From positions 10,264-74,263 of the forward strand of contig JBKJSN010000088.1 in assembly GCA_046595815.1 (NCBI GenBank): a DNA stretch of 64,000 nucleotides, read 5' to 3'. Each line of letters begins with the position of its first letter. Position 1 is the stretch's first letter. Made by a program: the position numbers and the translations under genes. Below the pieces are notes generated by a model. It was not told the DNA's origin and made no database searches. It was given only the letters and a program-made list of their open reading frames with translations. This DNA comes from Mycobacteriales bacterium (GTDB lineage: Bacteria; Actinomycetota; Actinomycetes; Mycobacteriales; SCTD01). Positions 7,346 through 58,441 of this stretch are shown in pieces.

Positions 7346-8637
7346 TCCTCGGTGCTGTGGCTCAGGAAGATCCGCACGTGTGCGGCCGCCACGAGCAGGA
7401 TCAGCGCGACCGCCAGGCTCTTGGCGAGCTGGGCCGTGTCGATGCTGTTGGTGAGCGAGGCGACAGGCGAAGAGAGCACCTTGGTCGTGGTCTTCCCGGG
7501 CTGGTCGGCGTAGGGCAGCGTCGGCTGGTACACCTCCGACCCGGGGGCGGTCACGGGGAAGGTCGTGGCCGGCAGCGGGGGCAGCTTGGGGATGCCCAGG
7601 CTCGGGGAGAACCGGTTGAAGCTCAGCGCGAAGGCACGCCGTGACGCGGCGATCGGCGGCAGGGTCGGGATGGTGATGGGGCGCGTCACGGAACCGCTCG
7701 AGGTGCCCGTCGCGCCGGTGCTGGTGCCCGTAGCGCCGCCTGTGGTGCCGGTGGTGCCGCCGGCCGTCGTACCGCCGGTGCTCGAACCGGTCGTACCACC
7801 GCTGCCGGACCCGGTCGTGCCACCCGTCGTACCCCCGGTGGGCGTAGGCGTCGGGCTCGGCGGCGGCTGAGGAGTCACCAACTGCGCGCCGGCCGTGTTG
7901 GACCACTCGGAGGCCAGGTCGCTGCCGCCGGTCCCGCTCTTGCGGAGCGCCCGCACCGTGTAGCGGTAGTCGTAGGTCCCCGGCGTGGGGTTGTCGTAGT
8001 ACGCGGTGTATGAACGGTCCGACGGGCCGGCGTTGAACGTGCTGCCCTTGCCGTCGCTGATCTCGAACCCGGTGAGGTCGGTTTCTTGGCCGCTGTAACT
8101 CCACTGGACGTCCACACGGCTGGCTCCGGTGCTCTGGGCGCTGACCGAGCTGGGCGTCGTCGTCGGCCCGAAATTGGTGTAAAAGGCCACGGGCGAGGTG
8201 CAGTTGTTGGCAGCGTCGTCGCACGTCTTCGCGGTCCACTTGCCGTTCACGTAGGAGCGCAGCTTGTCCAGGGTGATGGTGAAGCTGGCGGTCTTCGAGC
8301 AGCTGCTGACCAGGTTCGAGGAGCAGCTCGTGATCGACGGCGTGGCGTTGTAGCCGCGCGCCGGGCTCCCGAAGTCGGCCGGTCCGTCGATGACGATCGA
8401 GCCGCCGCTGCTCGTGCCGTCGGTGTTGGTGATGGTGCCCTTGACCATGACGTCCTGGGTGGCCGTCCCGTTGTTGCTGACCCCCGAGAGCGAGACGGTG
8501 AGCGACTGCGCGGCGAGCGCGGGAGTCGCGGTGGCCCCGATAAGGGCACTCGACAGCGGGAAGGCGAGCGCGAGCACCGCGACGGCCGCACGGGGCCGAC
8601 GGTAGGCACGAGTAGTCACATCACGCTCCCTTCTCAC
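7342..8637 (-). CDS. secreted fibronectin-III-like, Gly/Thr-rich protein with C-terminal TM helix
   Basis: Signal peptide (AVAVLALAFPLSSALIGATATPALAA). Long GGTTG/PTPTP low-complexity linker. C-terminal helix LAVALILLVAAAHV. GTG start overlaps the sortase stop (GTGA). Confidence 0.7.
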   Translation of the reverse strand: MRRERDVTTRAYRRPRAAVAVLALAFPLSSALIGATATPALAAQSLTVSLSGVSNNGTATQDVMVKGTITNTDGTSSGGSIVIDGPADFGSPARGYNATPSITSCSSNLVSSCSKTASFTITLDKLRSYVNGKWTAKTCDDAANNCTSPVAFYTNFGPTTTPSSVSAQSTGASRVDVQWSYSGQETDLTGFEISDGKGSTFNAGPSDRSYTAYYDNPTPGTYDYRYTVRALRKSGTGGSDLASEWSNTAGAQLVTPQPPPSPTPTPTGGTTGGTTGSGSGGTTGSSTGGTTAGGTTGTTGGATGTSTGATGTSSGSVTRPITIPTLPPIAASRRAFALSFNRFSPSLGIPKLPPLPATTFPVTAPGSEVYQPTLPYADQPGKTTTKVLSSPVASLTNSIDTAQLAKSLAVALILLVAAAHVRIFLSHSTED

Positions 8638-9469: not shown

Positions 9470-9838
9470 TCAGCGGCGTCCCGCTCGGGCGCGGCCCATC
9501 ACCATCCCCAGGGAAGACAAGCGTCCCGGTGGCGCCACGCCCACCGTGACCTCCGTGTCCAGGCCGTCCAACCTGCACGCGAGCAGCACCGCCCGCTGCT
9601 CCTGCACGAGCCGACGGGCGGCACCGCACGCCGCCCGCTCCCCCTCCAGGGCGTGCTTGGCGCCGGCCAGCGCAGCTACGTCGGCCACCGCCTCGGCGCG
9701 ATGCCGACTCCCGTCGACCGTCCGCGCCGCGCCGATCGCTCCGCCCAGGACGAGCAAGGCCATGGCCAGGCCAAGCACCAGGATGGTGGCGAAGCCGTCG
9801 TCCCCATCGCGGACTCGCCTGTGCCGGCGGGCCCTCAC
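9470..9838 (-). CDS. TadE-like pseudopilin (Rv3654c-family, helicase/secretion neighbourhood)
   Basis: 122 aa. N-terminal hydrophobic pilin-like segment (GFATILVLGLAMALLVLGG). 4-nt overlap with the upstream TadE-like gene. Position in the tad operon. Confidence 0.7.
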   Translation of the reverse strand: MRARRHRRVRDGDDGFATILVLGLAMALLVLGGAIGAARTVDGSRHRAEAVADVAALAGAKHALEGERAACGAARRLVQEQRAVLLACRLDGLDTEVTVGVAPPGRLSSLGMVMGRARAGRR

Positions 9839-47451: not shown

Positions 47452-47471
47452 CCGCAGGTCCTCCTTCAAGG

Positions 47472-47565
47472 AAAGGACCCCTCGCGCACCCGCCAAGAGC
47501 CCGCCTGCCCTTGCTGCCTTCCGGCCCTGGGGGGGTTCAGCGAGAAGAGCGCCGCACGAGGGGTC
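47472..47565 (-). ncRNA. ffs: signal recognition particle RNA (small bacterial type); ends approximate
   Basis: The minus strand contains the conserved domain IV core CCAGGGCCGGAAGGCAGCAAGGGCAGG, closed by the long helix GACCCCTCG...CGAGGGGTC. Canonical position between tRNA-Ser and dnaX. Confidence 0.75.
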
Positions 47566-47627
47566 TGCGCCCATCCTAGGGGTACGGCGGTCAGGTGCTG
47601 CTCGGGCGCTGCGCTAATCTCATCGAC

Positions 47628-47716
47628 GGAGGATTCGCCTAGTTGGCCTATGGCGCACGCTTGGAAAGCGTGTTGGGGGCAACCCCTCGCGAGTTCGAAT
47701 CTCGCATCCTCCGCCA
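47628..47716 (+). tRNA. tRNA-Ser (anticodon GGA), CCA encoded
   Basis: Acceptor GGAGGAT/ATCCTCC, anticodon stem CACGC/GCGTG with loop TTGGAAA, long variable arm (GGGG/CCCC), T arm GCGAG-TTCGAAT-CTCGC, then G plus CCA. Confidence 0.9.
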
Positions 47717-47756: not shown

Positions 47757-48360
47757 TCATCGGACGACGATGGAGCCCAGCACTCGCCAGTTCGGTTTGC
47801 CGGCATAGAGCAGGGCACGGACTCGGTAGTTGCGGAAGTTGCGGAAGCCGAACCCGATCCGCTTGATGCGCTTGATCAGGTTGTTGAGCGCCTCGGTGGG
47901 GCCGTTGCCGACGCGGGCGATGTGGAAGTTGCAGATCTTGTCGAACCACTTCTCGAGTGTGCCGCCGAGTTTGCGGAGCTCGAAGGGCATGGTGGGTCGC
48001 TTGCAGTGCTCGATCAGCTCGCGGAGCATCGCTCGGGCGGGGTCGATGTCGGTGCAGCGGTAGAACTCGCGCAGCCGTTCTTTGACCCGGTAGGCGATCG
48101 CGACCTCACCGTTGGGGTCGCCCTGGGCCAGCAGTGAAGCCAGTCGTTGCTGGGCTGCTTCGGTGAGCCGTTCCTCACCGGTCAGCAATACGCGACGCAC
48201 CCGGAACAGTGGGTCGCGCGCGACGTCCGCGGTGGCCCTTGTCCTCGCGTTGCACCCGGCGCCGGACCTCATCCAGCGCCCGGTTGGCGAGCTGGATGCA
48301 AGGGAAGGCGTCAACGACCTGCTTGGCCTTGGGCAGCGCTGCGGGGCTCGCGCGCAGGTC
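47757..48360 (-). pseudogene. ISL3-family transposase remnant (5'-truncated, frameshifted)
   Basis: C-terminal ISL3-like sequence (RVRRVLLTGEERL ... NGPTEALNNLIKRIKRIGFGFRNFRNYRVR). A different frame upstream reads KQVVDAFPCIQLANRALDEVRRRVQRE..GHRGR. Frameshift near 48214-48222, in-frame TAG at about 48361. No N-terminal half. Confidence 0.8.
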
Positions 48361-48449: not shown

Positions 48450-49238
48450 TCACCGACCGACCCGCTTCAGGGGCGGAACCTGAGCAGCGCCGAAGATGGC
48501 GGGCCGGGACACCTGCACCGCGACCACGAAGCACACCGCCCACAGCACGGCGACCGCAGCCCAGGTCCGCCCGATGCTGCCCGCCAGGTCCGGCTCAAAC
48601 CACGAAACGACTGCCAGCCAGACAGTCGCGGTCCCGACACACCAGGTCGGCACACGCCACCCCTGGGGGTGCCCCGCGGCCAGAGTTGCTCCCAGCAGCA
48701 ACGCGATGGGGAGCGCCGCCTGGATGGGCCAGTGGTCAAGGCCCCAGGTGTCATCTGCGACGAGATTGGTGCCGGTCGCTCGGGCTGAGTTCCACGAATA
48801 GGCGAAGGCCGGGGCGGCGGCCAGGACCACGAGCGCGGCCGGTAGCAGAGACGGCCGCCAGTACGACGGCCACGCTCGGAGCCCACCCCCCGTCGCCGCG
48901 AGAACGGCCGTGGTCACTGCGAGAGCGGCCGCGACGACGAGGTGCCCAGCCGACCCGCTCACTGCCGAAGCCGTCGCGACCGCCACGGCCACTGCGACCA
49001 CCAGGCCGAGCGCGGCTGGCGTGGCAGCCGCCGGCCTCACCACGAGTGCCAGCAGCGGCGCAGCCACCAGGAACAGAAAGAGCAGCCCCCAGCCGGTGGA
49101 CAGCAGCAGGGTCCGGTGGAAGTCCGGACCCTGCGCGAAAGCTAAGAGGTCGGTCAGGCCGAAGAAGAAAAATCCCCACAAGACGGCGAGGGCGGCGGCC
49201 AGAGTGCGGTGCAGGCGGGCCACAGACAGGCACCTCAT
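48450..49238 (-). CDS. integral membrane protein, function unknown
   Basis: 262 aa with about 8 hydrophobic helices. No motif recognised. Confidence 0.6.
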   Translation of the reverse strand: MRCLSVARLHRTLAAALAVLWGFFFFGLTDLLAFAQGPDFHRTLLLSTGWGLLFLFLVAAPLLALVVRPAAATPAALGLVVAVAVAVATASAVSGSAGHLVVAAALAVTTAVLAATGGGLRAWPSYWRPSLLPAALVVLAAAPAFAYSWNSARATGTNLVADDTWGLDHWPIQAALPIALLLGATLAAGHPQGWRVPTWCVGTATVWLAVVSWFEPDLAGSIGRTWAAVAVLWAVCFVVAVQVSRPAIFGAAQVPPLKRVGR

Positions 49239-49681: not shown

Positions 49682-49732
49682 CGAAAGCGTCTTGGGGGCA
49701 ACCCCTCGCGAGTTCGAATCTCGCATCCTCCG
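49682..49732 (+). repeat. duplicate of the 3' half of tRNA-Ser(GGA) (att-type direct repeat; partner 47664-47714)
   Basis: GAAAGCGTcTTGGGGGCAACCCCTCGCGAGTTCGAATCTCGCATCCTCCGC is identical to 47664-47714 except for one base (50/51). It starts in the anticodon loop and ends in the acceptor stem. Confidence 0.9.
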
Positions 49733-49737
49733 CGCAA

Positions 49738-49775: not shown

Positions 49776-49834
49776 GTCGTGCGTCGTGTCATGGCTTGTA
49801 CGCCGTCCCGCTCGGGGCTGGCCGTGACATCGAA

Positions 49835-49870
49835 AACCCCTGAACCCGCTCAGCTGTGGGTTCAGGGGTT
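49835..49870 (-). terminator. hairpin terminator candidate (minus strand)
   Basis: 13-bp perfect arms AACCCCTGAACCC / GGGTTCAGGGGTT with a 10-nt loop. On the minus strand the stem runs into TTTTCG. It lies about 310 nt downstream of the 644-aa gene. Confidence 0.5.
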
Positions 49871-50181
49871 CTCGATCTCCGAAGAGATCACATTGGCGGG
49901 GTGGCGACGAAACTCCAAACCCGCAGGTCACAGTCATGGTCAACGAGATTCGCCCAAGGCGGTGCACGCGTTTTGCCCCGGACCTTGCACACTCCACAAA
50001 CCGACTCTCGAGGCGCGGAGCCTGAGTCGTACGGTGCGGTTCTGGGTGCGGTTCTGGGTGCGAGCGGGTGCCGTTGCCTGCCGGGTGAAGCCAGGGGCTG
50101 TCTTCGCAGCGAGCTGGTCGAAAGCGAGGTTGCGCTACTGGCAGATCCTGACCTGCTCAAAGCTTGGCGCCGCAGGTCTTC

Positions 50182-52116
50182 CTATCGGGTCTGACCGGTG
50201 CTCTCGGGCGCAGGCTGAGCTGCAGTCGGCTGCTGACGCAATCGGTGCGCCAGCAGGCTCTCCCGTCCTGCATCTGTGAGCCGGAAGGTCGAGGTGGGGC
50301 TCAGGGGGTTGTCGGTTGTACGGAGGATGAACCCCTTCTTCTCCGCCTCAGAAATCCAGCGGGTGCGGCTCTTGGTGGAGGCGAGGCTGAGCGCCTCAGC
50401 GATGCCCTTGGGTGAGAGCTCTCCGCCGCTACTGGCGTCGATGGCTGCGAGGAGCTCAGGCACCCGGCTCTCCCTGCTCCGGCCGTCCCTCACGGGCTTC
50501 TGCTGCTCATGCGCTGGCGCCTCGATAGCGCCAGCTCCCCGATCAGCTCCCCCGGTGCCCGCGGGCTCGTTGCTCAGCCTCCACGACGAGCTGTGCTTGC
50601 TACTTAGACGGTGAAGAATGCCGGCATCTTCGAGTGCCCGCAGTTCCGCTGCGGCGTCCACAAGCGCGCACGGTGCCAGGCTTCGGGCGGCCAAGTGCGT
50701 CCCGAAGGAAACGCCTGCCAGACCTGACTCGTTCACCTCCTCGCGCAACTGCATCAGACGGAGCAGAACGCTGACTAGGCGCAATCGGGCCGGGGAGCCC
50801 TCGACCTTCTTCTTCTCGAGCACCTGCCGGGCTGGCTCAAGGTCCAGCGTTCCCCTCAGCATGATGACCTGGAATGCGTTGGGCTTGTCTACGAACAGGA
50901 TTGGCATGCAGCCTGCAACGTGACACGCCTCGTCGGCGGCGGCAATGCCTGAGGTTTGATGCTCAACGATGCGAGCCCCGCTTGGGGAACGCAGCTCCTC
51001 AGCGATCCGCACCAGGCTGACGTTGCGTACGCCGGACATGTGGGTCATCCCAAGCTTCTCCAGGTCTGCATCCACGTGCAGTCCCCCTGGGCTGGTCACC
51101 ACAACCGAGGAGTCTGCTACCTCCACGAGCACGCTCGTGTCTCGTTGCGAAGGGGCGAACCCCCGGTGCACGAGGGCGTTGGACAAGACTTCTCGGAGTG
51201 TCTCGCGGGGAATGTCGAGCTCATCGAAGAGCTGCCCGCGCCGAACGACCTGCATGATGCCAAGTTCTTGATTCAGCGCCTCGAGTGTTTTGTCGAGCAG
51301 CTCCCCGGCGGTGCCGTCGATGTTGTGCGAAGCGAAGCGGGTGTCAGGAGGATCCGTGGCCTTGGGGTGCCTGCGGTAGCCGATGCGGCCGCTGTCGCTC
51401 CGGGTGTGGGGGTTCTCGCCTAGCGTCACTAGTCCGGCGTAGGTGAGCGTGCCGTCATCTCGCAGAACCCCCCACTGACGAAGCAAGTGCTCGTTGCCGT
51501 GCTCGGCCGACTTGGGGTTGGCGTTCCGTAGCGCCTGACAGAAGGCGTCGGCGGCAACGGTGTTCAGCGTGCTTCCCTCAGGGGCAGCCGCCCGGCTGAG
51601 GTCCTCACGCTTGCGGTTTGCCAACATTCCCGCGACCTCGGAAGGTGTCAGTCGCTGGTCGCCATCGCCCACTCGGATGAACGACCCCTTCTCGGGCCCA
51701 TCGCCCGCTCGGTGGCAGGGACGCTCATCTCTGGGTACCGCAGGAATGTCTGCGATCAGGACGGTGCCGTCGGGGTGGCTGACCAAGCTGATGGTGGCCC
51801 TCAGCGGTGGCTGCATCGATGCGCAGACTGCCTGAAACTCCGAGAGCATCTTTTGGGGGTTGTCCACGCCCGTCACGTCGAACGTGCCCGAGTTCTCGAA
51901 CACACCCAGCAAGAAGATGCCGCCCTCGCCGTTTGCAAAGGCACTGAGGGTTTCGTGGGTGGTCTCTGGAAGCGCTCGTTGCGCCCGCTTGGCTTCGATG
52001 AACTGATGGTCCGTTTTGACATCCCGAAGCTCGGCCAAAAGAGCATCCAAGGCATCGACATCCATCGGTGAGGCAGCTCCTGTCACGCGCAGCACGGTCC
52101 GCTCAGGAGTCCTCAA
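50182..52116 (-). CDS. AlbA_2 (Schlafen-like) plus HATPase_c_4 plus C-terminal winged-helix protein (putative DNA-binding ATPase/regulator)
   Basis: AlbA_2 signature (FIEAKRA ... LSAFANGEGGIFLLGV). HATPase_c_4 signature (REVLSNALVHRGF ... VVVTSPGGL). C-terminal wHTH-like segment (LSPKGIAEALSLASTKSRTRWISEAEKKGFILR). Track start 52116 is TTG; ATG 52065 (MDVDALDALL) is an alternative. Confidence 0.8.
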   Translation of the reverse strand: MRTPERTVLRVTGAASPMDVDALDALLAELRDVKTDHQFIEAKRAQRALPETTHETLSAFANGEGGIFLLGVFENSGTFDVTGVDNPQKMLSEFQAVCASMQPPLRATISLVSHPDGTVLIADIPAVPRDERPCHRAGDGPEKGSFIRVGDGDQRLTPSEVAGMLANRKREDLSRAAAPEGSTLNTVAADAFCQALRNANPKSAEHGNEHLLRQWGVLRDDGTLTYAGLVTLGENPHTRSDSGRIGYRRHPKATDPPDTRFASHNIDGTAGELLDKTLEALNQELGIMQVVRRGQLFDELDIPRETLREVLSNALVHRGFAPSQRDTSVLVEVADSSVVVTSPGGLHVDADLEKLGMTHMSGVRNVSLVRIAEELRSPSGARIVEHQTSGIAAADEACHVAGCMPILFVDKPNAFQVIMLRGTLDLEPARQVLEKKKVEGSPARLRLVSVLLRLMQLREEVNESGLAGVSFGTHLAARSLAPCALVDAAAELRALEDAGILHRLSSKHSSSWRLSNEPAGTGGADRGAGAIEAPAHEQQKPVRDGRSRESRVPELLAAIDASSGGELSPKGIAEALSLASTKSRTRWISEAEKKGFILRTTDNPLSPTSTFRLTDAGRESLLAHRLRQQPTAAQPAPESTGQTR

Positions 52117-52122
52117 CGCTCG

Positions 52123-52310
52123 AACCCTTTACCCAAACCTTACACCCAACTCCTGACTTCCCGCCCACTTGGGTAAAGGGTTCCCTGGCGCTCGGCCTGC
52201 GATACACGCTCAGAACTACCCCATGTGAGCAAGTTGGGTAAAGGGTTTCGGGCAAGTTGGGTAAAGGGTTGGTGCCTTGGGTAAAGGGTTGGTGCCTTGG
52301 GTAAAGGGTC
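52123..52310. repeat. iteron array: 14-bp motif TTGGGTAAAGGGTT, five direct copies plus one or two inverted copies
   Basis: Direct copies at 52169-52182, 52234-52247, 52257-52270, 52277-52290 and 52297-52310 (last base C). Inverted copy AACCCTTTACCCAA at 52123-52136. Degenerate inverted copy (11/14) at 52136-52149. The last three form 20-bp tandem units TTGGGTAAAGGGTTGGTGCC. Confidence 0.9.
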
Positions 52311-52514
52311 TCTGACGAGGGGGTGTGCCAGGTAACTGTTCAAGTAGAAGCGCTACCGACCCCGGACGTCCACTTCTGCCGGTGCCTGAGAGGGCCTGGT
52401 GGCGGCGCTACCGCGTTGCAGCCAGCAGTCAGGTTCTCATGAGCACGCCTAACAAGCCGGAAAGATGGGTCCAACCGCGCGCATTGTCGTGCTTGCTCGC
52501 AGGAGCGGCGTACG

Positions 52515-52748
52515 GTGCACACAATGGACCCTCTTGACGGTTTGCCGTCCGAGTCGCGCGCCGAGGTAGTGGCCGCTGTACAAGCCGCTTGGGACGTGAG
52601 CCCGGCCGCGGCTGAGGAGATTCTCCGCGCCGCTGAGCCGCTGTGGAACGTGCTCGAGGAACACGGCGGAGTGGATACCTGGGGCGGTATGGAGTTCGTC
52701 AATGTCTTCCCGCAGGCACTTGTACTCATCCGCAAAGCGTGCAACTGA
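52515..52748 (+). CDS. small acidic hypothetical protein (77 aa)
   Basis: GTG start 9 nt after AGGAG. About 70% G/C at third codon positions, within a locally lower-GC region. No motif recognised. Confidence 0.55.
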   Translation: MHTMDPLDGLPSESRAEVVAAVQAAWDVSPAAAEEILRAAEPLWNVLEEHGGVDTWGGMEFVNVFPQALVLIRKACN

Positions 52749-52833
52749 CGTACGTTCCAACGAGGCGCAGCCGATCCAAGCAGGTGCACCAGTTAGACCC
52801 ATCCCATCCGTCTTGTTAGCCGTACTCAGGTTC

Positions 52834-54375
52834 TCACAAGCGACGCAGAAGCCTCAGCCACCTGGGCCGTACCGGGCTTACGTCGTCCGGCAGGGGCTCG
52901 GGACTCGGTTCTGGCGCGAGTTCGAGGCCCGCATGGAAGGCGAGCTCCCGCCGCTCGTTCCGGCTGAGCCCACTCGTAGCAAGCCGCGCGGTCATCCGGT
53001 TGCGCAGCGCGGGAGCTGGCTGCCCCCAGGTCGTCGCGGCGCCTGCATGGAGCCAGTTGCGTAGTGCCGCCCGACCGAGGCCCGACAGCTGCGCATCGTC
53101 ATCAGCGGCGGCGCGCAGGTCGGCGTCAACCCGGTCCCAACTTCCAGCAGAGCGGCTGAGCCGCCACCCCGCCCTCCGGCTCCACGGTTGCTCGGACGCC
53201 CACGCCGGTTCAGCATCCGTGCCCGATGCCCCCGCCCGGGCGAGGCCGCGAGCTGCGGCAGAGCAGACTCGGCTACTGGGATCGAGCAGCAGCGGCCGGA
53301 GCTGTTCCCGGACACGGGCAGGTGTGCCGAGGACGGCGACAGCGGCGACAGCGTTGGCGCGCACCGCCGGGCTCGCGTGCGGCAAGTAGGTGCCAGCGAG
53401 GTCGGCGTCGTCCTGGCCGGCGCCGACGACCGAGAGTCCGTCGAGCGCTGCGGCGACTCGCCGGGTGCCGCGTGCACCCTCGACGAGCCAGCCGCGGTAC
53501 ATCGACGCAGGGTTCACATCTCGTCGCCGAGTCCGCCACTGCGCCGTTTCGCGGACCCGAGCGGATGGGTCGTCGAGAAGACTCAGCAGCGTCGTGGTGT
53601 CCAGGGCGCCGTCGTCGAGGCATGTGAGGGCAAGAAGCCGTCCGTCGACGAAGCGTGAGCCAAGTAGCTCGAGCAACTGTGCGGGTGTTGCGGTCGCCTT
53701 CAACCACTGAGCGGCAAGGGCTCGCACGAACTGGTCCCTCTCGCCGCGGACCGCAGCCATGAGCTCGTCGGTACTGAGCAGGCCCCGGTCGTGTGCAGCC
53801 TCGAAAGCCCATCTGCGAACGCGCCGGTCGGCGCTTGCTTGCAACGTCGGGAGCAGGCTCTGCTCGTCATGGACGGCGAAGAGCGCATCGAGGTAGCTGG
53901 CGAGTGCCTGTGGGGCGTGCTGCCGCTGCCGCCCGGCCAGCAGCACGCCGAGTGCGGACGAGGCAGCCTCGGGCGCGGTCTGCAATCGCAGCCCAAGCAG
54001 CGCGTCTTCGCGTACTTGCGGGACGTGGTCAAGGCAGCGCAAAGCTAGGGCCGCTGCTCGCAGCACGCCGGGGCTGCCGGCGAGGACCTTGGTGGCGCGC
54101 TGCCGAATGCGTCCGTCCGCGTGCAGGCTCGTTACCGCGGCCACGAACCCGGTCTTCTCCGCGAGGTTCGACCCGAGCCAGCCTCTCGTGCCGCTGACGG
54201 GCGCACCGCCGCTCATGTATCCGTAACTGCGGGCGTGGTCGTCGAGCTGGAGCCAGTCCCTGCCGCCTAGGACGCGAAGCCATGTTGCGCCTTCGATGCA
54301 GGCGGTCGTGTCGTTACCTGTGACGGCGTCCGCGAACGCCTGTAACGCCTCGCGGGCCTGCGACGGTGTGAGCAC
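52834..54375 (-). CDS. HEAT/ARM-like repeat protein, function unknown
   Basis: 513 aa. Recurrent HEAT-type signatures (DGRIRQRATKVL, DRRVRRWAFEAA, DPSARVRETA, HASPAVRANAVAA, DPSSRVCSAAARGL). GTG start abutting a palindrome. Confidence 0.65.
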   Translation of the reverse strand: MLTPSQAREALQAFADAVTGNDTTACIEGATWLRVLGGRDWLQLDDHARSYGYMSGGAPVSGTRGWLGSNLAEKTGFVAAVTSLHADGRIRQRATKVLAGSPGVLRAAALALRCLDHVPQVREDALLGLRLQTAPEAASSALGVLLAGRQRQHAPQALASYLDALFAVHDEQSLLPTLQASADRRVRRWAFEAAHDRGLLSTDELMAAVRGERDQFVRALAAQWLKATATPAQLLELLGSRFVDGRLLALTCLDDGALDTTTLLSLLDDPSARVRETAQWRTRRRDVNPASMYRGWLVEGARGTRRVAAALDGLSVVGAGQDDADLAGTYLPHASPAVRANAVAAVAVLGTPARVREQLRPLLLDPSSRVCSAAARGLARAGASGTDAEPAWASEQPWSRRAGWRLSRSAGSWDRVDADLRAAADDDAQLSGLGRAALRNWLHAGAATTWGQPAPALRNRMTARLATSGLSRNERRELAFHAGLELAPEPSPEPLPDDVSPVRPRWLRLLRRL

Positions 54376-54408
54376 GTCCTAGATCGTGACGTAGTTCGGT
54401 CTAGGACG
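54375..54408. promoter_or_regulatory. 9-bp inverted repeat with 16-nt spacer at the HEAT-gene start (candidate operator)
   Basis: CGTCCTAGA (54375-54383) and TCTAGGACG (54400-54408), in the divergent region between the HEAT gene and the recombinase-like gene. Confidence 0.45.
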
Positions 54409-54547: not shown

Positions 54548-56401
54548 TTGCAACCGCGGATCGAGACCGGACCTGTGTTCGTTGTGACCACAGAGGGTTC
54601 GACGGAGACGACGGTGCAGCGGCTTGCCCGCTACACCCCGTATCTGCTGACCGCGGCGCAGTGGGCGCTCGCACAGGCTCCGGTGACGAACGCCGTCCTC
54701 GCTGCTGCTCCTGCCGATGCTGCTGACGCGATGGGGTTGGCCTCTCGGCTGTGCCGGCTACTTGTCGAACACCCTGGCTGGGACGGCCTGAGCGTTCCGG
54801 ACCTGGCCTTGTTGGTGACCGACCCGGGGATCAGCGCGCACATAGCGCGACTGGCGGCTTCCGGGACTTCCAGCCAGGGTCAGGGCAAGCATCTGTGCGA
54901 TCTTCGCCGGCTCAAGCACGCTCTCGCCGGGACCGTTGCCCCTGTGCGGGCACCCGTTCGCAAGCCAGTGGCTCCGTCGGCCGCCACCCGGCCACTGATG
55001 TCCTGGCTGGCAGCGGGCGAGCCGCTGCTCACGGCGGTGGCCGCGTATGAGAAGTCAACCGGCCGCAGCCTGAGCAAGAAGGTGATGAACCGGGCTGCTG
55101 AGGGAGCGCCGGCGTCGAGTGCGGCGGCGCCAGATCCGGGCACCGTGCTCTCGCTGAGCTCCGTCGGGGCTCCTGCGTGGGAAGTGGTGAGTCCACGAAC
55201 ATGGGCACGGTCATCCTCTGAGAGCACCTCCGGACCACTCAGGTCCGCCGCCCGGGCAGCGAGCGCGACGTCGAGCGCGACCTCGCGCACCTCGGGACCT
55301 GCTACTTCGGTGAAGCCGTCACGAGCTGCGGCGCTGCGTGCGGCGAAGGCAGCTGCCAGCGCGCGTTCAGCCCCGACTGTGACTGCCCTGCCCGACGTGA
55401 GCCTGCTGCCTGCAAAGGTGCAAGAAGCGATCGCCGAGTACCGCCCAGCAGCTCTCAGCGCCGAGCGCTGGGAGATCCTTGGGCCCCTGTGCCGCCGCCT
55501 CATCGCCAGCTACGCACCAGTCACTGCCGGGGTTGCCCGTTCGAGCGCGACCTCTATTGCCGCGTTCGTCGCGTGGATCCAGACGCGGCCGGGGCGGGCC
55601 GACGTTGGTGGCTCCGTTGCGGTTGAGGAGCTTCAGACCGCGGGCCTTCTCGATGTGTACCTGACGGAGTTGGCTGCTAGCGGGACGCCAGATCCGTCGC
55701 TGGCGACGTACCGGTCTGTGCTTCGGCGAACACTGAAGGCGCTGGACCCCAGCCCTCCCGCGGCGATCGCCTACCAGCCGATCGCTGGGCCGTACAGCGC
55801 CGCAGAGTGCGCCGCGTACGTGCGGCTGGCCCGCAACCAGCCCACCTCCCCTCGCCGTCGGGAACTCTCGACGATCGTCGGGCTCGGTCTCGGTGCCGGG
55901 CTGGACGGCAAAGACCTCCGCGCGGTGTGCCCGACCGATTTCAGTGACGCGACGCTCCCTGACGGAACGCTCGTGCTCCTTGTGCAGGTCCGCGGCGGCC
56001 GCCCCCGGACGGTGCCCGTCCGCGCGCTTTACGCCGATCTGGTCCGGGAAGCGCTGGCCCTGCACGCCAGCGATCGTCGGGGTTCCAACACGCCGCTGTT
56101 GGGCGTGAAGCCGACGCGGAAGAGCATCACGAGCCCAGCTATCCGCGACGCCGTCACCGCTACCGATGACAGCGTTGACATCGCGGTGAACCGGCTCCGC
56201 GCGACGTGGCTGGTGGCGTGTCTGGCCGCAGGCATCCCCCTCGGGCCGCTGCTGCACGCTGCTGGGCTGCGCTCAGCCAGGACCCTTACGGACCTGCTCG
56301 CGTACTGCCCCGCGCCGAACCCAGGCGACGTCAACCGACTCCTCGCGACCCTTCCCGCCGGTCCTTCTGGAACGCCTCCTGCGCCGGCAGGTGCGACATG
56401 A
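54548..56401 (+). CDS. tyrosine-recombinase-like protein with long N-terminal extension; catalytic residues appear partly substituted
   Basis: The C-terminal half has a core-binding-like segment (SIAAFVAWIQ ... ATYRSVLRRTLKAL) and an integrase-fold-like segment (GLGAGLDGKDLRAV, RGGRPRTVPV, NRLRATWLVACLAAGIPL, AGLRSARTLTDLLAY). TTG start is uncertain. The middle is low-complexity Ser/Ala/Arg. Confidence 0.55.
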   Translation: MQPRIETGPVFVVTTEGSTETTVQRLARYTPYLLTAAQWALAQAPVTNAVLAAAPADAADAMGLASRLCRLLVEHPGWDGLSVPDLALLVTDPGISAHIARLAASGTSSQGQGKHLCDLRRLKHALAGTVAPVRAPVRKPVAPSAATRPLMSWLAAGEPLLTAVAAYEKSTGRSLSKKVMNRAAEGAPASSAAAPDPGTVLSLSSVGAPAWEVVSPRTWARSSSESTSGPLRSAARAASATSSATSRTSGPATSVKPSRAAALRAAKAAASARSAPTVTALPDVSLLPAKVQEAIAEYRPAALSAERWEILGPLCRRLIASYAPVTAGVARSSATSIAAFVAWIQTRPGRADVGGSVAVEELQTAGLLDVYLTELAASGTPDPSLATYRSVLRRTLKALDPSPPAAIAYQPIAGPYSAAECAAYVRLARNQPTSPRRRELSTIVGLGLGAGLDGKDLRAVCPTDFSDATLPDGTLVLLVQVRGGRPRTVPVRALYADLVREALALHASDRRGSNTPLLGVKPTRKSITSPAIRDAVTATDDSVDIAVNRLRATWLVACLAAGIPLGPLLHAAGLRSARTLTDLLAYCPAPNPGDVNRLLATLPAGPSGTPPAPAGAT

Positions 56402-58104
56402 TTCCTCGGACCGAGCTCGACCGTGCGGTCGCGCTCGTGCGGCGCTCCGGCGTGCATAAGGACCTCGAAGCAAGGCTGCGTCCAGACGGCGCGGGCGGGC
56501 GGCCCCGGCAACTGCCCGTTGACGTGTTTCTCGCCGGCGTGATCTTGGCCGCGGGCAGCCGCAAGAACCTGGCCTTGACGAACGTGCATGCGCTCCTGAC
56601 CGGCGACATCGCCCGGTCGGCCCAGATCCAGTACGGGATCCGTTGGACGGACAAGGCCGGCGCCAGCCGCTGCCTGACGCTCCGGCAGGTCCGGTACTTG
56701 CTGGAAGCTCTCGAAGGAAAACTTGCCGCGACCCCAGGGCGGGCACCTGACCTGGACGACGTTGAGCGCGCCGAGCGCACCGACGCGCTCCAGTCCGTGC
56801 TGGACAAGCTCCTCGCCGCGACCATGCCGGTCCACCTACCGCCCGCAGACCGCTTCGCGCTCGACGCGACCTCGATGGAGTCCTGGGGCAAAGGCAAGCG
56901 CCGCACGGCCGTCGCGGTGCCCCAGGTGGAGCCGGAGGGCACTGGCGCGCACCCGCCGGCGGGGGTCGCTGAAGGTGACCTGCTGGCCATTGCACTCGAG
57001 GCTGGTGCCTCGTTCGACCCTGATGCTGACTGGGGCTACCGGACCCGCACGTACGACAACAAGACCAAGATGTGCTTTGGGTACGACGTGTTCGCGATCA
57101 CTGCGATGCCCAAGCCTGGTGGCACCGGAGTGCTCGACCGGCCGGTTCTGACCGAACGGCTCGTGGTCGCGCCGGCGAGTGCCGATGTCGTCGCTCCCGC
57201 GCTCGGGATGTTCGACCGGCTCACCGACGACGGCCGGACGGTCGTGGAGGTCGCCGCCGACCGCGCCTGGTCCTACAAGCTTCCCGATCGGTGGGCGGAT
57301 GAGCTTCGCGCACGGGAGATAGAAGCCGTGCTGGACCTGCACCCTAACGATCAGGGCGTCCGGGACTTCGAGGGAATCCGGATGGTCGCCGGGACGCCGC
57401 ACTGCCCTTCGATGCCCGATGAGCTGATCAACATCGTCCGGCCCGCGAACCTCTCCGCTGGCCGCGACCGGCCCCGTGCCAGTGCTGTACAGAAGGCCGA
57501 GCGAGCAAAGCGCAACTCGGAGCTCGAGGAGTTCGCGGCCAAGATCGCCGAGCGTGAAGCGTGGGCTTTCCGCCGGGTCGCCGGACCCGACGAGACCGGC
57601 AAGGAGCGCTGGGAGTGCCCCGCGCAGGCCGGCAAGCGCAGCTGCGGCAACTGCCCGTTCAGCAAGGACTTTCCGGTCGGCACCCCGACGGTCGAGAACC
57701 CGCCTGAGCTCACGACCGCGCCCAAGTGCTGCACCCAACGGACCGTGACGATCCCCGGGTCGGTCACGCCCAAGATCCGTCAGCGCCTGTACTGGGGCAG
57801 CCCCGAGTGGATCGCGTCGTTCAACCGACGGACCTACATCGAGGGCGTGTTCGGCAACATGAAGTCCCCCAAGACCGAGAACGTCCGCCGCGGCTGGACG
57901 TTCGTCGTCGGGATCGTCAAGACCAGCCTCATGGTCGGGTGTGTTGCTGCTGCCGCGAACCTTCGCACGCTCCGGGCATGGGCGGCACGAACCGGAGACC
58001 ACAGGGACCCCCTCACCGTCATCGACCCCGTCAGCGCCGGGTTCGAGGAGCTCGAACCCGACTGCGGCGCCACCGGTATCCACGGGCCACCGCTCGCCGC
58101 CTGA
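56398..58104 (+). CDS. DDE transposase-like protein (IS4/IS5-superfamily type, YREK-like signature) with Cys-rich insertion
   Basis: ATG 56398 overlaps the upstream stop (ATGA). DUF772/InsH-N-like N-terminus (GRPRQLPVDVFLAGVILAAGS). Candidate D (FALDATSMESW), D (EVAADRAWSY), E in F-x2-R-x3-E-x6-K (FNRRTYIEGVFGNMK). Cys cluster WECPAQAGKRSCGNCPFS. Confidence 0.65.
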   Translation: MIPRTELDRAVALVRRSGVHKDLEARLRPDGAGGRPRQLPVDVFLAGVILAAGSRKNLALTNVHALLTGDIARSAQIQYGIRWTDKAGASRCLTLRQVRYLLEALEGKLAATPGRAPDLDDVERAERTDALQSVLDKLLAATMPVHLPPADRFALDATSMESWGKGKRRTAVAVPQVEPEGTGAHPPAGVAEGDLLAIALEAGASFDPDADWGYRTRTYDNKTKMCFGYDVFAITAMPKPGGTGVLDRPVLTERLVVAPASADVVAPALGMFDRLTDDGRTVVEVAADRAWSYKLPDRWADELRAREIEAVLDLHPNDQGVRDFEGIRMVAGTPHCPSMPDELINIVRPANLSAGRDRPRASAVQKAERAKRNSELEEFAAKIAEREAWAFRRVAGPDETGKERWECPAQAGKRSCGNCPFSKDFPVGTPTVENPPELTTAPKCCTQRTVTIPGSVTPKIRQRLYWGSPEWIASFNRRTYIEGVFGNMKSPKTENVRRGWTFVVGIVKTSLMVGCVAAAANLRTLRAWAARTGDHRDPLTVIDPVSAGFEELEPDCGATGIHGPPLAA

Positions 58105-58351: not shown

Positions 58352-58441
58352 TGGCGGTGGCGGTGGGATTTGAACCCACGGAGGAGTTGCCCCCTCACAC
58401 GCTTTCGAGGCGTGCTCCTTCGGCCGCTCGGACACGCCACC
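58352..58441 (-). tRNA. tRNA-Ser (anticodon CGA), CCA encoded
   Basis: The minus strand reads GGTGGCGTGTCCGAGCGGCCGAAGGAGCACGCCTCGAAAGCGTGTGAGGGGGCAACTCCTCCGTGGGTTCAAATCCCACCGCCACCGCCA. Anticodon loop CTCGAAA, long variable arm, T loop TTCAAAT. Confidence 0.9.

What the first reader, a model, noticed from the sequence alone, without database searches (positions are those of the whole stretch)
50182..54408. Candidate uncharacterised module: AlbA_2/Schlafen-like ATPase-wHTH protein, small acidic protein and HEAT-repeat protein
Three genes with no assignable pathway sit together in a tRNA-flanked island.
- A 644-aa protein combines an AlbA_2 (Schlafen-type) domain, an HATPase_c_4 domain and a C-terminal winged helix.
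- A divergent 77-aa acidic ORF has a good SD and is separated from it by the iteron array.
- A convergent 513-aa HEAT-repeat protein starts at a 9-bp palindrome.
AlbA_2/Schlafen-like domains and large repeat proteins recur in mobile elements and defence islands, so a sensor/effector or element-maintenance function is plausible. I cannot match this gene set to any named defence system from memory. The HEAT gene has a higher GC than the other two, so co-function is uncertain.
Basis: inference. Interest (0 to 1): 0.75.

Follow-up and report, generated by a model that had tools for sequence, protein, structure and literature searches.

The report
Self-regulated Schlafen-ATPase gene, unrelated neighbours
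The three genes do not form a module: the only unit that recurs elsewhere is one gene for a Schlafen-nuclease/ATPase/DNA-binding protein together with an array of short repeats in front of it, a recently catalogued but still uncharacterised type of probable bacterial defence protein.

Summary
The three-gene "module" is not supported.

- **Schlafen gene.** The 644-aa ORF is really 627 aa (ATG at 52065). It has a Schlafen/AlbA_2 nuclease domain, a GHKL ATPase and two C-terminal winged helices. This architecture is known as "pSlfn-HisKinase-HTH" or "Schlatpase-HTH".
- **Repeat array.** Six perfect copies of TTGGGTAAAGGGT lie 59-244 nt upstream of its start.
- **No shared neighbours.** None of 80 homologue loci carries a relative of the 77-aa, HEAT, 617-aa or 632-aa genes within 10 kb. 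HEAT and 77-aa homologues sit in other contexts.
- **Closest relative.** It is 84% identical in DNA, and the similarity covers only the gene plus the proximal repeats.
- **Repeats are a family trait.** Repeat arrays upstream of the gene occur across the family: 41% of loci against 0.9% of control windows. The motifs are lineage-specific and track a helix of the second winged helix.

Best reading: a solitary, self-regulated Schlafen-ATPase cassette, probably a latent growth-arresting RNase, in a mosaic island between two tRNA-Ser genes. The HEAT gene belongs to a family that follows the RlaP-Hen1-Pnkp RNA-repair operon in one lineage. This is a new member of a known kind, of moderate interest.

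The parts
50182..52065 (-). Coding sequence of the 627-aa Schlafen(AlbA_2)-GHKL ATPase-tandem winged-helix protein ('Schlatpase-HTH'). The true start is the ATG at 52065; the listed 644-aa ORF starts at the TTG at 52116.
   Evidence: Pfam hits. Homologues align from Met18. AlphaFold2 model with pLDDT 86.9. Foldseek matches 3LMM over the full length at E 1e-22.
51616..52065 (-). Schlafen/AlbA_2 nuclease domain (residues ~1-150). It contains the motif D19-x4-E24-x-K26, invariant in the 24-sequence alignment.
   Evidence: 2KYY, E 3e-8; SLFN14/12/13. The motif corresponds to E17/D22/K24 of CbCash (PMC13462974) and E15/D20 of RorSlfn5 (PMC13056530).
50806..51210 (-). GHKL (HATPase_c_4) ATPase domain (residues ~286-420). 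Its N-box E292...N296 and the SGI glycine box (S372 G373 I374) are conserved.
   Evidence: PDK and HK853 folds. E314/N318 are the equivalent residues in RzAgo (bioRxiv 10.64898/2026.05.29.728809).
50566..50793 (-). First winged helix-turn-helix (residues ~425-500).
   Evidence: AlphaFold2 secondary structure.
50233..50463 (-). Second winged helix-turn-helix (residues ~535-611). The helix at residues 564-576 varies with the repeat motif class across homologues.
   Evidence: MarR/MftR-operator complexes; Fic wHTH 4RGL, E 2.5e-4.
52124..52136 (-). Site O1. It is the promoter-proximal copy of TTGGGTAAAGGGT and reads in the gene's orientation. It lies 59-71 nt upstream of the ATG and forms a perfect 15-nt inverted repeat with O2.
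   Evidence: It is conserved exactly in the closest relative, L087.
52137..52150 (-). Degenerate seventh site (AACCTTACACCCAA on the plus strand). It contains GTGTAAGGTT, the motif used by related proteins (L001, L081).
   Evidence: (I3, I7).
52169..52181 (+). Site O2, 104-116 nt upstream of the ATG.
   Evidence: Present with 1 mismatch in L087.
52234..52246 (+). Site O3, 169-181 nt upstream of the ATG.
   Evidence: Present with 1 mismatch in L087.
52257..52316 (+). Sites O4-O6. They form a 20-bp tandem repeat, TTGGGTAAAGGGTTGGTGCC x2.7, with 100% matches. This expansion is specific to the window, because similarity to the closest relative ends at 52262.
52515..52748 (+). Small acidic protein gene (77 aa from the GTG, 74 aa from the ATG at 52524). 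It is a real conserved gene but not part of the Schlafen cassette.
   Evidence: DNA similarity to L097 and L098 covers exactly 52524-52748.
52834..54375 (-). HEAT-repeat solenoid protein (513 aa). It is an independent gene. Its closest relatives follow pnkp in RlaP-Hen1-Pnkp operons.
54376..54407 (.). Inverted repeat GTCCTAGA-N16-TCTAGGAC immediately upstream of the HEAT start, overlapping its Shine-Dalgarno sequence.
   Evidence: Read directly from the sequence.
47628..47716 (+). tRNA-Ser(gga), the left boundary of the island. It lies next to SRP RNA (47470-47568) and dnaX.
49683..49733 (+). A 51-nt copy (98%) of the 3' end of tRNA-Ser(gga). It is the att-like end of a 2-kb remnant that holds an ISL3 transposase fragment and a membrane-protein gene. 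The three genes lie outside this remnant.
58352..58441 (-). tRNA-Ser(cga), the right boundary of the island. Beyond it lie nitroreductase, EAL and MurB genes.

Best explanation
The stretch is a mosaic of unrelated accessory genes between two tRNA-Ser genes, not a three-gene system. The one self-contained unit is a single-gene cassette at about 50182-52316.

**The cassette.**
- It encodes a 627-aa protein: a Schlafen/AlbA_2 nuclease domain, a GHKL ATPase and two winged helices.
- Six perfect 13-bp sites and one degenerate site lie in its own 5' region.

**Proposed mechanism.**
- The C-terminal winged helices bind these sites, which include an inverted pair (O1/O2) 59-116 nt upstream of the start codon. 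This would repress the protein's own transcription and keep the dose low. Binding and repression are inferred.
[quoted passage not shown] That would pair the Schlafen domains into an active RNase, probably a tRNase, which arrests growth during phage attack or another stress. This is inferred from homology and conserved catalytic residues.

**What is shown.** Domain content, conserved catalytic motifs, the repeat array, its recurrence with lineage-specific motifs across the family, and the lack of any conserved partner gene.

**The neighbours.** The 74/77-aa acidic protein and the HEAT protein have their own separate distributions.
For: **Architecture.**
- Pfam hits above cut-off.
- AlphaFold2 model at pLDDT 86.9.
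- Foldseek finds the full-length fold of 3LMM (E 1e-22), plus Schlafen 12/13/14, GHKL kinases and MarR-type wHTH-operator complexes.

**Catalytic motifs.**
- D19, E24 and K26 are invariant, as are E292/N296 and S372-G373-I374, in 24 homologues at 37-86% identity.
- One species-representative locus outside that alignment (L001) has Gly at position 24.
- The Schlafen motif matches the residues whose mutation abolishes tRNA cleavage in CbCash and RorSlfn5 (PMC13462974, PMC13056530).

**Repeats.**
- Six exact 13-mers against 0.14 expected. All copies in the 64-kb window lie at this locus.
- The closest relative, L087, keeps three sites at the same positions.

**Family-wide repeat arrays.**
- 31 of 76 homologue loci have at least 4 copies of an 8-mer in the 220 nt upstream, against 57 of 6055 control windows (odds ratio 72, p = 2e-39).
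- 43 of 75 loci exceed dinucleotide shuffles at p <= 0.01.
- Motifs differ by lineage: GTAAGG type, GTGCAGAGT, CCTAGTAG, TGATAGGAT and CATTACA. They track the helix at residues 564-576 of the second winged helix.

**Solitary cassette.**
- DNA similarity to the closest relative covers only 50195-52262.
- Neighbourhoods of homologues are all different: a PKS cluster, the rpsJ-rplC gap next to AbiE genes, and a region with AbiEi, ParA and HTH_17 genes.
- tblastn finds no partner genes in the 80 loci.

**Function by analogy.**
- RzAgo's Schlafen-GHKL unit needs ATP to tetramerise and cleave tRNA (bioRxiv 10.64898/2026.05.29.728809).
- TrlG, which has AlbA_2 and HATPase_c_4 domains, causes growth arrest in Photorhabdus (bioRxiv 10.1101/2020.06.02.129163).
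Against: - No experiment shows DNA binding, autoregulation, nuclease activity or defence for any Schlafen-GHKL-HTH protein.
- In the one published screen (PMC13056530), the two fusions that protected E. coli were the DUF262 and Ig-like types, not the histidine-kinase (GHKL) type.
- The link between motif class and recognition helix is confounded by phylogeny, because the motif classes are also clades.
- The control windows are mostly coding sequence. The shuffle control answers this only in part.
- No sigma-70-like promoter was detected, so overlap between the sites and the promoter is assumed.
- No known defence gene was identified among the five island proteins scanned.
- Only the proteins within about 8 kb were scanned, and PADLOC-DB dates from 2023.
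Confidence: 0.6

Rival explanations
1. The Schlafen-ATPase protein, the small acidic protein and the HEAT protein work together as a three-gene sensor/effector or element-maintenance module.
For: The genes are adjacent in a low-GC3 island. The array lies between the divergent 644-aa and 77-aa genes, so it could control both.
Against: - No co-occurrence in 80 Schlafen-homologue loci, 10 HEAT loci or 2 loci around 77-aa homologues.
- The closest relative of the Schlafen gene has different flanks on both sides.
- DNA similarity for the 77-aa gene covers only its ORF.
- The three genes are in three transcription units and differ in GC.
Confidence: 0.06
2. The array is a true iteron origin and the large protein is the initiator or maintenance protein of an integrated plasmid-like element.
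For: The layout resembles iteron plasmids whose Rep proteins have tandem winged helices: direct repeats plus one inverted copy next to a gene for a protein with two winged helices. The island also contains transposase-like and recombinase-like genes.
Against: - No Rep family hit in Pfam, NCBIfam or PHROGs.
- No DnaA box and no AT-rich unwinding region near the array.
- No close homologue on any of 72,556 plasmids; the hits are at most 30% identical and partial.
- Homologues with similar arrays sit as single genes inside a PKS cluster and inside the S10 ribosomal operon.
- The three distal sites are a recent 20-bp tandem duplication absent from the closest relative.
Confidence: 0.04
3. The protein is simply an autoregulated transcription factor, or a chromatin-like DNA-binding protein, with no toxic or defence role. 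On this view the Schlafen and GHKL domains serve ligand sensing or DNA handling.
For: Sources annotate homologues as 'putative transcriptional regulator' or 'DNA binding domain-containing protein'. Operator-like arrays are typical of autoregulators. The histidine-kinase-type Schlafen fusions were not among the two that gave defence in the published E. coli screen (PMC13056530).
Against: - The nuclease triad and the ATPase N-box are invariant in the 24 aligned homologues, which argues for retained catalysis.
- The distribution is patchy and the contexts variable, with AbiE genes near two homologues.
- The 13-mer occurs nowhere else in 64 kb, so there is no sign of a regulon.
- TrlG loss-of-function mutants lose a growth-arrest phenotype (bioRxiv 10.1101/2020.06.02.129163).
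Confidence: 0.22
4. The HEAT protein and the Schlafen nuclease are functionally linked through RNA damage and repair. For example, the HEAT protein could be an immunity, adaptor or repair factor for cleaved tRNA.
For: The window's closest HEAT relatives (53-59% identity) are the fourth gene after RlaP-Hen1-Pnkp, with start and stop codons overlapping, in L088, L089 and L101. That system repairs ribotoxin-cut RNA (PMC4411300). Schlafen nucleases cut tRNA (PMC13056530).
Against: - The three Pnkp-linked loci are one lineage (Pnkp 88-96% identical).
- Other HEAT loci lack Pnkp.
- The window has no Pnkp, Hen1 or RlaP.
- No HEAT relative lies near any of 80 Schlafen homologues, and no Schlafen relative lies near any of 10 HEAT loci.
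Confidence: 0.06

Closest known systems
Prokaryotic Schlafen fused to histidine-kinase-like ATPase and HTH ('pSlfn-HisKinase-HTH', 19.2% of 5,930 pSlfns, PMC13056530). Also called 'Schlatpase' proteins with a C-terminal HTH (bioRxiv 10.64898/2026.05.29.728809).
   Same: Same domain order (AlbA_2, PF13749 GHKL, C-terminal HTH), a conserved nuclease motif, and solitary genes in variable or defence-type neighbourhoods.
   Different: The class is catalogued but no member has been characterised. This actinobacterial subfamily has two winged helices and a conspicuous array of cognate repeats upstream. Neither paper mentions such repeats in the passages I searched.
RzAgo, the Schlafen-Argonaute of Runella zeae (bioRxiv 10.64898/2026.05.29.728809)
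   Same: Same Schlafen-GHKL unit. In RzAgo, ATP binding (E314/N318) drives tetramerisation and tRNA cleavage. The equivalent residues E292/N296 are conserved here.
   Different: RzAgo senses DNA through a guide-loaded Argonaute core of more than 600 residues. Here that module is replaced by two sequence-specific winged helices.
TrlG of Photorhabdus laumondii (bioRxiv 10.1101/2020.06.02.129163)
   Same: AlbA_2 and HATPase_c_4 domains at similar positions. The active protein causes growth arrest. The distribution is patchy and horizontally acquired.
   Different: TrlG sits in a three-gene operon (trlR, trlF, trlG) and responds to temperature. The window gene is solitary. The proteins were not compared directly.
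DIP2311 of Corynebacterium diphtheriae (PDB 3LMM) and the N-terminal domain structure 2KYY
   Same: Full-length fold match (Foldseek E 1e-22; sequence E 0.0056). 2KYY matches the Schlafen domain (E 3e-8).
   Different: These are structural-genomics entries of unknown function with about 17-18% identity.
Characterised bacterial Schlafen defence nucleases RorSlfn5, EcoSlfn7 (PMC13056530) and CbCash (PMC13462974)
   Same: A Schlafen nuclease domain with the acidic-x4-acidic(-x-Lys) motif, and activation by oligomerisation.
   Different: Their sensors are an Ig-like domain, DUF262 or a cA4-binding Csx15 domain. They have no GHKL ATPase and no HTH.
Iteron plasmids with tandem winged-helix Rep proteins (RepE, RepA, pi). 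This comparison is from my own knowledge.
   Same: Direct repeats plus an inverted copy near the promoter of a gene for a protein with two winged helices.
   Different: No Rep homology, no DnaA box or AT-rich region, no plasmid-borne homologues, and single-gene chromosomal occurrences.

Membership tests
pSlfn-HisKinase-HTH / Schlatpase-HTH proteins | N-terminal Schlafen AlbA_2 domain (PF04326) | tested here: met
   45.4 bits against a cut-off of 25.3. 2KYY at E 3e-8. Foldseek hits to SLFN12/13/14.
pSlfn-HisKinase-HTH / Schlatpase-HTH proteins | GHKL-type ATPase domain (PF13749) following the Schlafen domain | tested here: met
   40.9 bits against a cut-off of 26. N-box E292/N296 and the SGI box are invariant. 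Foldseek finds PDK and HK853 folds.
pSlfn-HisKinase-HTH / Schlatpase-HTH proteins | C-terminal helix-turn-helix domain | tested here: met
   Two winged helices in the AlphaFold2 model. Foldseek matches MarR/MftR-operator complexes. Sequence hit to the Fic wHTH 4RGL at E 2.5e-4.
pSlfn-HisKinase-HTH / Schlatpase-HTH proteins | Intact Schlafen catalytic residues (acidic-x4-acidic, then Lys) | tested here: met
   D19, E24 and K26 are invariant in the 24 aligned homologues. One further locus, L001, has Gly at position 24. Equivalence to E17/D22/K24 of CbCash rests on motif position, not on a structural superposition.
pSlfn-HisKinase-HTH / Schlatpase-HTH proteins | ATP-dependent oligomerisation and RNase/tRNase activity | not testable with these tools
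   Known only for RzAgo, a different fusion.
Anti-phage defence system (any named) | Match to a curated defence-system model | tested here: not met
   PADLOC-DB 2.0.0 gives only weak partial hits to pAgo-associated proteins (E 5.7e-7, residues 192-347). It gives no hits for the other four proteins. The library predates the Schlafen defence papers.
Anti-phage defence system (any named) | Protection against phage or plasmid | not testable with these tools
   This requires an experiment.
   No co-occurrence in any of 80, 10 or 2 loci. The flanks differ in the closest relative.
Iteron-type replicon | Rep initiator homology | tested here: not met
   No Rep family in Pfam, NCBIfam or PHROGs.
Iteron-type replicon | Array of direct repeats | tested here: met
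   Five direct copies and one inverted copy.
Iteron-type replicon | Adjacent DnaA boxes or an AT-rich unwinding element; occurrence on plasmids | tested here: not met
   No DnaA box with at most 1 mismatch. The lowest 40-nt GC is 45% and lies inside coding sequence. There is no close plasmid homologue.
Pnkp-Hen1 RNA repair operon (for the HEAT gene) | Adjacent pnkp, hen1 and rlaP genes | tested here: not met
   These genes are present next to the HEAT relatives in L088, L089 and L101. They are absent from the whole 64-kb window.

The most novel reading that the evidence does not exclude
The cis-encoded repeat array may be more than an operator. On this reading, Schlafen-GHKL-HTH proteins use it as an assembly platform that holds the ATP-driven oligomer in an inactive, DNA-bound state. 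Several sites lie on one face of the helix, spaced 20 bp apart here. Loss of, or competition for, this DNA would release an active RNase. Host-DNA degradation, phage DNA carrying the motif, or a phage DNA-binding protein could each cause that. This would be a way of guarding one's own DNA, and it would explain why the commonest prokaryotic Schlafen architecture carries a sequence-specific HTH. A smaller additional possibility is that the HEAT family is an unrecognised accessory factor of tRNA damage and repair.
Probability: 0.12. Interest if true: 0.7.

Novelty: new member of a known kind. Interest (0 to 1): 0.4.

Why it matters
Schlafen-GHKL-HTH proteins are reported as about a fifth of all prokaryotic Schlafen proteins, and most Schlafen-GHKL proteins with a C-terminal tail carry an HTH. 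Yet none has a known trigger, target or regulator.

This work shows that these genes travel alone and usually carry an array of lineage-specific repeats in their own 5' region. That gives a concrete handle that can be tested directly: what the HTH binds, and how expression or activity may be restrained. It also removes a false lead, because the neighbouring small acidic gene and the HEAT gene are not partners.

Separately, the HEAT family's position after Pnkp in RNA-repair operons points to a possible new accessory factor of that pathway.

Tried and rejected
- **Partner genes near Schlafen homologues.** tblastn of the 77-aa, HEAT, 617-aa and 632-aa proteins against 80 homologue loci (1.4 Mb) found nothing, even at E < 0.5.
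- **The window's own contig.** An exact look-up of the protein to recover its contig and annotation was not on record, and the cluster look-up gave no names.
- **More HEAT loci.** A metagenome scan returned only 6 loci, too few for statistics.
- **Plasmids and viruses.** HEAT, the 77-aa protein and the 617-aa protein gave no plasmid or viral hits where searched. The Schlafen protein gave only distant ones.
- **HEAT structure.** Foldseek of the HEAT model found only generic solenoids such as the PP2A A subunit and karyopherins.
- **Other family libraries.** NCBIfam and PHROGs were uninformative, apart from a mislabelled 'DNA helicase' PHROG for the Schlafen protein.
- **Promoter scan.** No sigma-70-like site was found, so promoter-operator overlap stays unproven.
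- **Non-coding RNA.** Rfam found nothing in the intergenic regions.
- **Replicon reading.** Rejected: no DnaA box or AT-rich region and no Rep homology.
- **The 617-aa protein.** It has no Pfam or PDB hit. A full HMMER search shows a large uncharacterised family with only a sub-threshold integrase signal in one homologue.

Full report
**Setting.** The window is high-GC actinobacterial DNA (about 70% GC). On the left, dnaX, SRP RNA (47470-47568) and tRNA-Ser(gga) (47628-47716) mark core genome. On the right, tRNA-Ser(cga) (58352-58441) is followed by nitroreductase, EAL and MurB genes. The 10.6 kb between the two tRNA genes has lower GC. Its genes have GC3 of 0.72-0.84, against 0.89 for dnaX. 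A 51-nt copy of the tRNA-Ser(gga) 3' end at 49683-49733 closes a 2-kb remnant that holds an ISL3 transposase fragment and a membrane-protein gene. The three genes of the finding lie to the right of that remnant. They are followed by a 617-aa ORF and a 632-aa ORF, and the 632-aa ORF has a weak IS1182/DDE C-terminal signal.

**Checking the observation.** Every descriptive element was found.

- The 644-aa ORF carries SLFN_AlbA_2 and HATPase_c_4 above Pfam's cut-offs.
- Homologues, including the database's own call for this exact gene (P0001, 627 aa), begin at Met18. The start is therefore the ATG at 52065.
- An AlphaFold2 model built on 24 homologues is confident (pLDDT 86.9, pTM 0.75). It shows the Schlafen domain, a linker domain, the GHKL fold and two winged helices separated by a disordered stretch.
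- Foldseek recovers the full-length fold of the uncharacterised DIP2311 (3LMM, E 1e-22). It also finds 2KYY, human SLFN12/13/14, GHKL kinases and MarR-type wHTH-operator complexes.
- The repeat array is striking. Six exact copies of TTGGGTAAAGGGT lie within 186 bp, against 0.14 expected, and there are no other copies in the 64 kb.
- The 77-aa ORF is acidic, has coding-type codon-position GC, and has five homologues at 59-80% identity.
- The 513-aa ORF is a HEAT solenoid.

**Is it a module?** No. A profile of the large protein retrieved 493 relatives in species-representative genomes, and I kept 80 loci with up to 10 kb on each side.

- tblastn with the 77-aa, HEAT, 617-aa and 632-aa proteins found no relative in any of these loci.
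- The closest relatives are decisive. L087 (86% protein identity, 84% DNA identity) matches the window only from 50195 to 52262, which is the gene plus the three proximal repeat sites. Both flanks are unrelated.
- L086 is a 5'-deleted copy of the gene in a further context.
- Annotated neighbourhoods of more distant homologues all differ. One lies between polyketide synthase genes. One is inserted between rpsJ and rplC next to an AbiE pair. One lies among AbiEi, ParA and HTH_17 genes.
- From the other side, the two 77-aa homologues with usable contigs sit among small hypothetical genes with an integrase, a ParE toxin and an ECF sigma factor, or next to a zinc ABC transporter. DNA similarity covers only the ORF.
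- HEAT homologues form a large actinobacterial family, and none of the 10 HEAT loci examined has a Schlafen relative.

**What the array is.** Upstream regions of the close homologues all carry short repeats in both orientations just before the start codon, but the motif changes with lineage.

| Motif | Loci |
|---|---|
| GTGTAAGG / GCGTAAGG | L001, L002, L005, L006, L013, L081 |
| GTGCAGAGT | L009, L011, L012 (L012 has 11 or more tandem heptamers) |
| CCTAGTAG | L008, L010 |
| TGATAGGAT | L004 |
| CATTACA | L084 |

The window's GGGTAAAGGGT is a variant of the GTAAGG type, and its degenerate seventh site contains GTGTAAGGTT.

- Across 76 loci, 41% have at least 4 copies of an 8-mer in the 220 nt upstream, against 0.9% of 6055 control windows from the same loci (odds ratio 72, p = 2e-39).
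- 43 of 75 loci exceed dinucleotide shuffles at p <= 0.01.
- The helix at residues 564-576 of the second winged helix differs by motif class: S-P-x-S-R-x-R-W-I, R-G-T-R-D-V-F and E-R-A-M-R-N-A-F. This is what a recognition helix would do, although the classes are also clades, so phylogeny confounds the comparison.
- The array therefore looks like the protein's own binding region, a family trait, rather than a plasmid origin.
- Supporting this, there is no Rep homology, no DnaA box or AT-rich element and no close plasmid-borne homologue.
- Sites O4-O6 are a perfect 20-bp tandem duplication that is absent from the closest relative.

**How it probably works.** The acidic-x4-acidic-x-Lys motif (D19, E24, K26) and the GHKL N-box (E292, N296) are invariant in the 24 aligned homologues. 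One further locus, L001, has Gly at position 24. In characterised bacterial Schlafens the equivalent acidic residues are required for tRNA cleavage (E15/D20 in RorSlfn5, PMC13056530; E17/D22/K24 in CbCash, PMC13462974). In the Schlafen-Argonaute RzAgo, the same Schlafen-GHKL unit binds ATP, tetramerises and thereby forms the active tRNase (bioRxiv 10.64898/2026.05.29.728809). TrlG, an AlbA_2 and HATPase_c_4 protein, causes growth arrest in Photorhabdus (bioRxiv 10.1101/2020.06.02.129163).

I therefore propose a latent, ATP-gated RNase. Its winged helices bind the upstream sites, which include the perfect O1/O2 inverted pair 59-116 nt before the ATG, and so limit its own expression. Domain content, residue conservation and the repeat pattern are shown. 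DNA binding, autorepression, RNase activity and any defence role are inferred.

**Comparison with what is known.** The architecture is already catalogued. 'pSlfn-HisKinase-HTH' makes up 19.2% of 5,930 prokaryotic Schlafens (PMC13056530). More than 90% of 'Schlatpase' C-terminal tails are HTH domains (bioRxiv 10.64898/2026.05.29.728809). No member has been characterised. In the published E. coli screen, the two protective fusions were the DUF262 and Ig-like types. The upstream repeat arrays are not mentioned in the passages I searched in those papers. The gene is thus a new member of a known kind, with a family-level regulatory feature that appears to be undescribed.

**The HEAT gene.** Its three closest examined relatives (53-59% identity) are the fourth gene of RlaP-Hen1-Pnkp RNA-repair operons, with the start codon overlapping the pnkp stop. 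Among those loci Pnkp is 88-96% identical but the HEAT protein only 58-84%. This is one lineage with a fast-evolving HEAT gene. Other family members (L090-L094) and the window itself lack Pnkp. A tRNA-repair-associated gene beside a Schlafen nuclease gene is suggestive. It occurs only here, however, so I treat it as coincidence with a small residual probability.

**Verdict.** The three-gene interpretation is not supported. The Schlafen gene and its repeats form a solitary, probably self-regulated cassette of an uncharacterised but recognised class. Interest is moderate (0.4).

Noticed in passing
window 52834-54375; L088 7001-8545, L089 5551-7092, L101 751-2292: The closest relatives of the HEAT protein are the fourth gene after RlaP-Hen1-Pnkp RNA-repair genes, with start and stop codons overlapping. 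Pnkp is 88-96% identical among these loci, but the HEAT protein only 58-84%. The literature search I ran did not surface a HEAT partner of this operon.
   Followed up: partly
window 54548-56401 (+): The 617-aa ORF probably encodes 595 aa, starting at residue 23. It belongs to a large uncharacterised family (1536 cluster representatives at E <= 1e-3). Its C-terminal ~340 residues also occur as stand-alone proteins. One of those gives a sub-threshold Phage_integrase hit (E 0.0025), and two homologues carry an N-terminal Dam-type methyltransferase domain.
   Followed up: partly
window 56206-58104 (+): The 632-aa ORF overlaps the end of the 617-aa ORF. It shows only a weak C-terminal IS1182/DDE_Tnp_1_6 signal (E about 1e-4 to 1e-6, below the cut-offs). 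It may be a divergent transposase.
   Followed up: no
window 47664-47714 and 49683-49733: A 51-nt direct repeat (98%) of the tRNA-Ser(gga) 3' end brackets a 2-kb remnant. The remnant holds an ISL3 transposase fragment (47757-48314) and a 262-aa membrane-protein gene (48450-49238), and has no integrase.
   Followed up: partly
window 52515-52748; L097 10001-10225; L098 853-1077: The small acidic protein is conserved at 76-79% DNA identity over exactly its ORF in two unrelated contexts. One is a region rich in small genes with an integrase, a ParE toxin and an ECF sigma factor. It has no family assignment.
   Followed up: partly
L086 1-1891: A relative of the Schlafen gene (83% identity) has lost site O1, the start codon and roughly the first 108 codons. 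It looks like a decaying copy.
   Followed up: no
L012 about 9690-9780; L084 about 7930-7990: Some homologues have extreme upstream arrays: a CTCTGCA heptamer repeated 11 or more times in tandem in L012, and CATTACA x3 in L084. In L084 the gene lies between rpsJ and rplC, next to an AbiEi/AbiEii pair.
   Followed up: partly
L001 (Angustibacter sp.): This homologue has Gly in place of the otherwise conserved catalytic Glu24 (SVGAKRA). It may be a nuclease-dead variant that nevertheless keeps its upstream repeats.
   Followed up: no
window 50033-50062 and 49826-49879: A 12-bp tandem repeat, GGTGCGGTTCTG x2.5, lies in the gap about 120 nt downstream of the Schlafen gene's stop. A 22-nt-arm hairpin lies at 49826-49879.
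   Followed up: no
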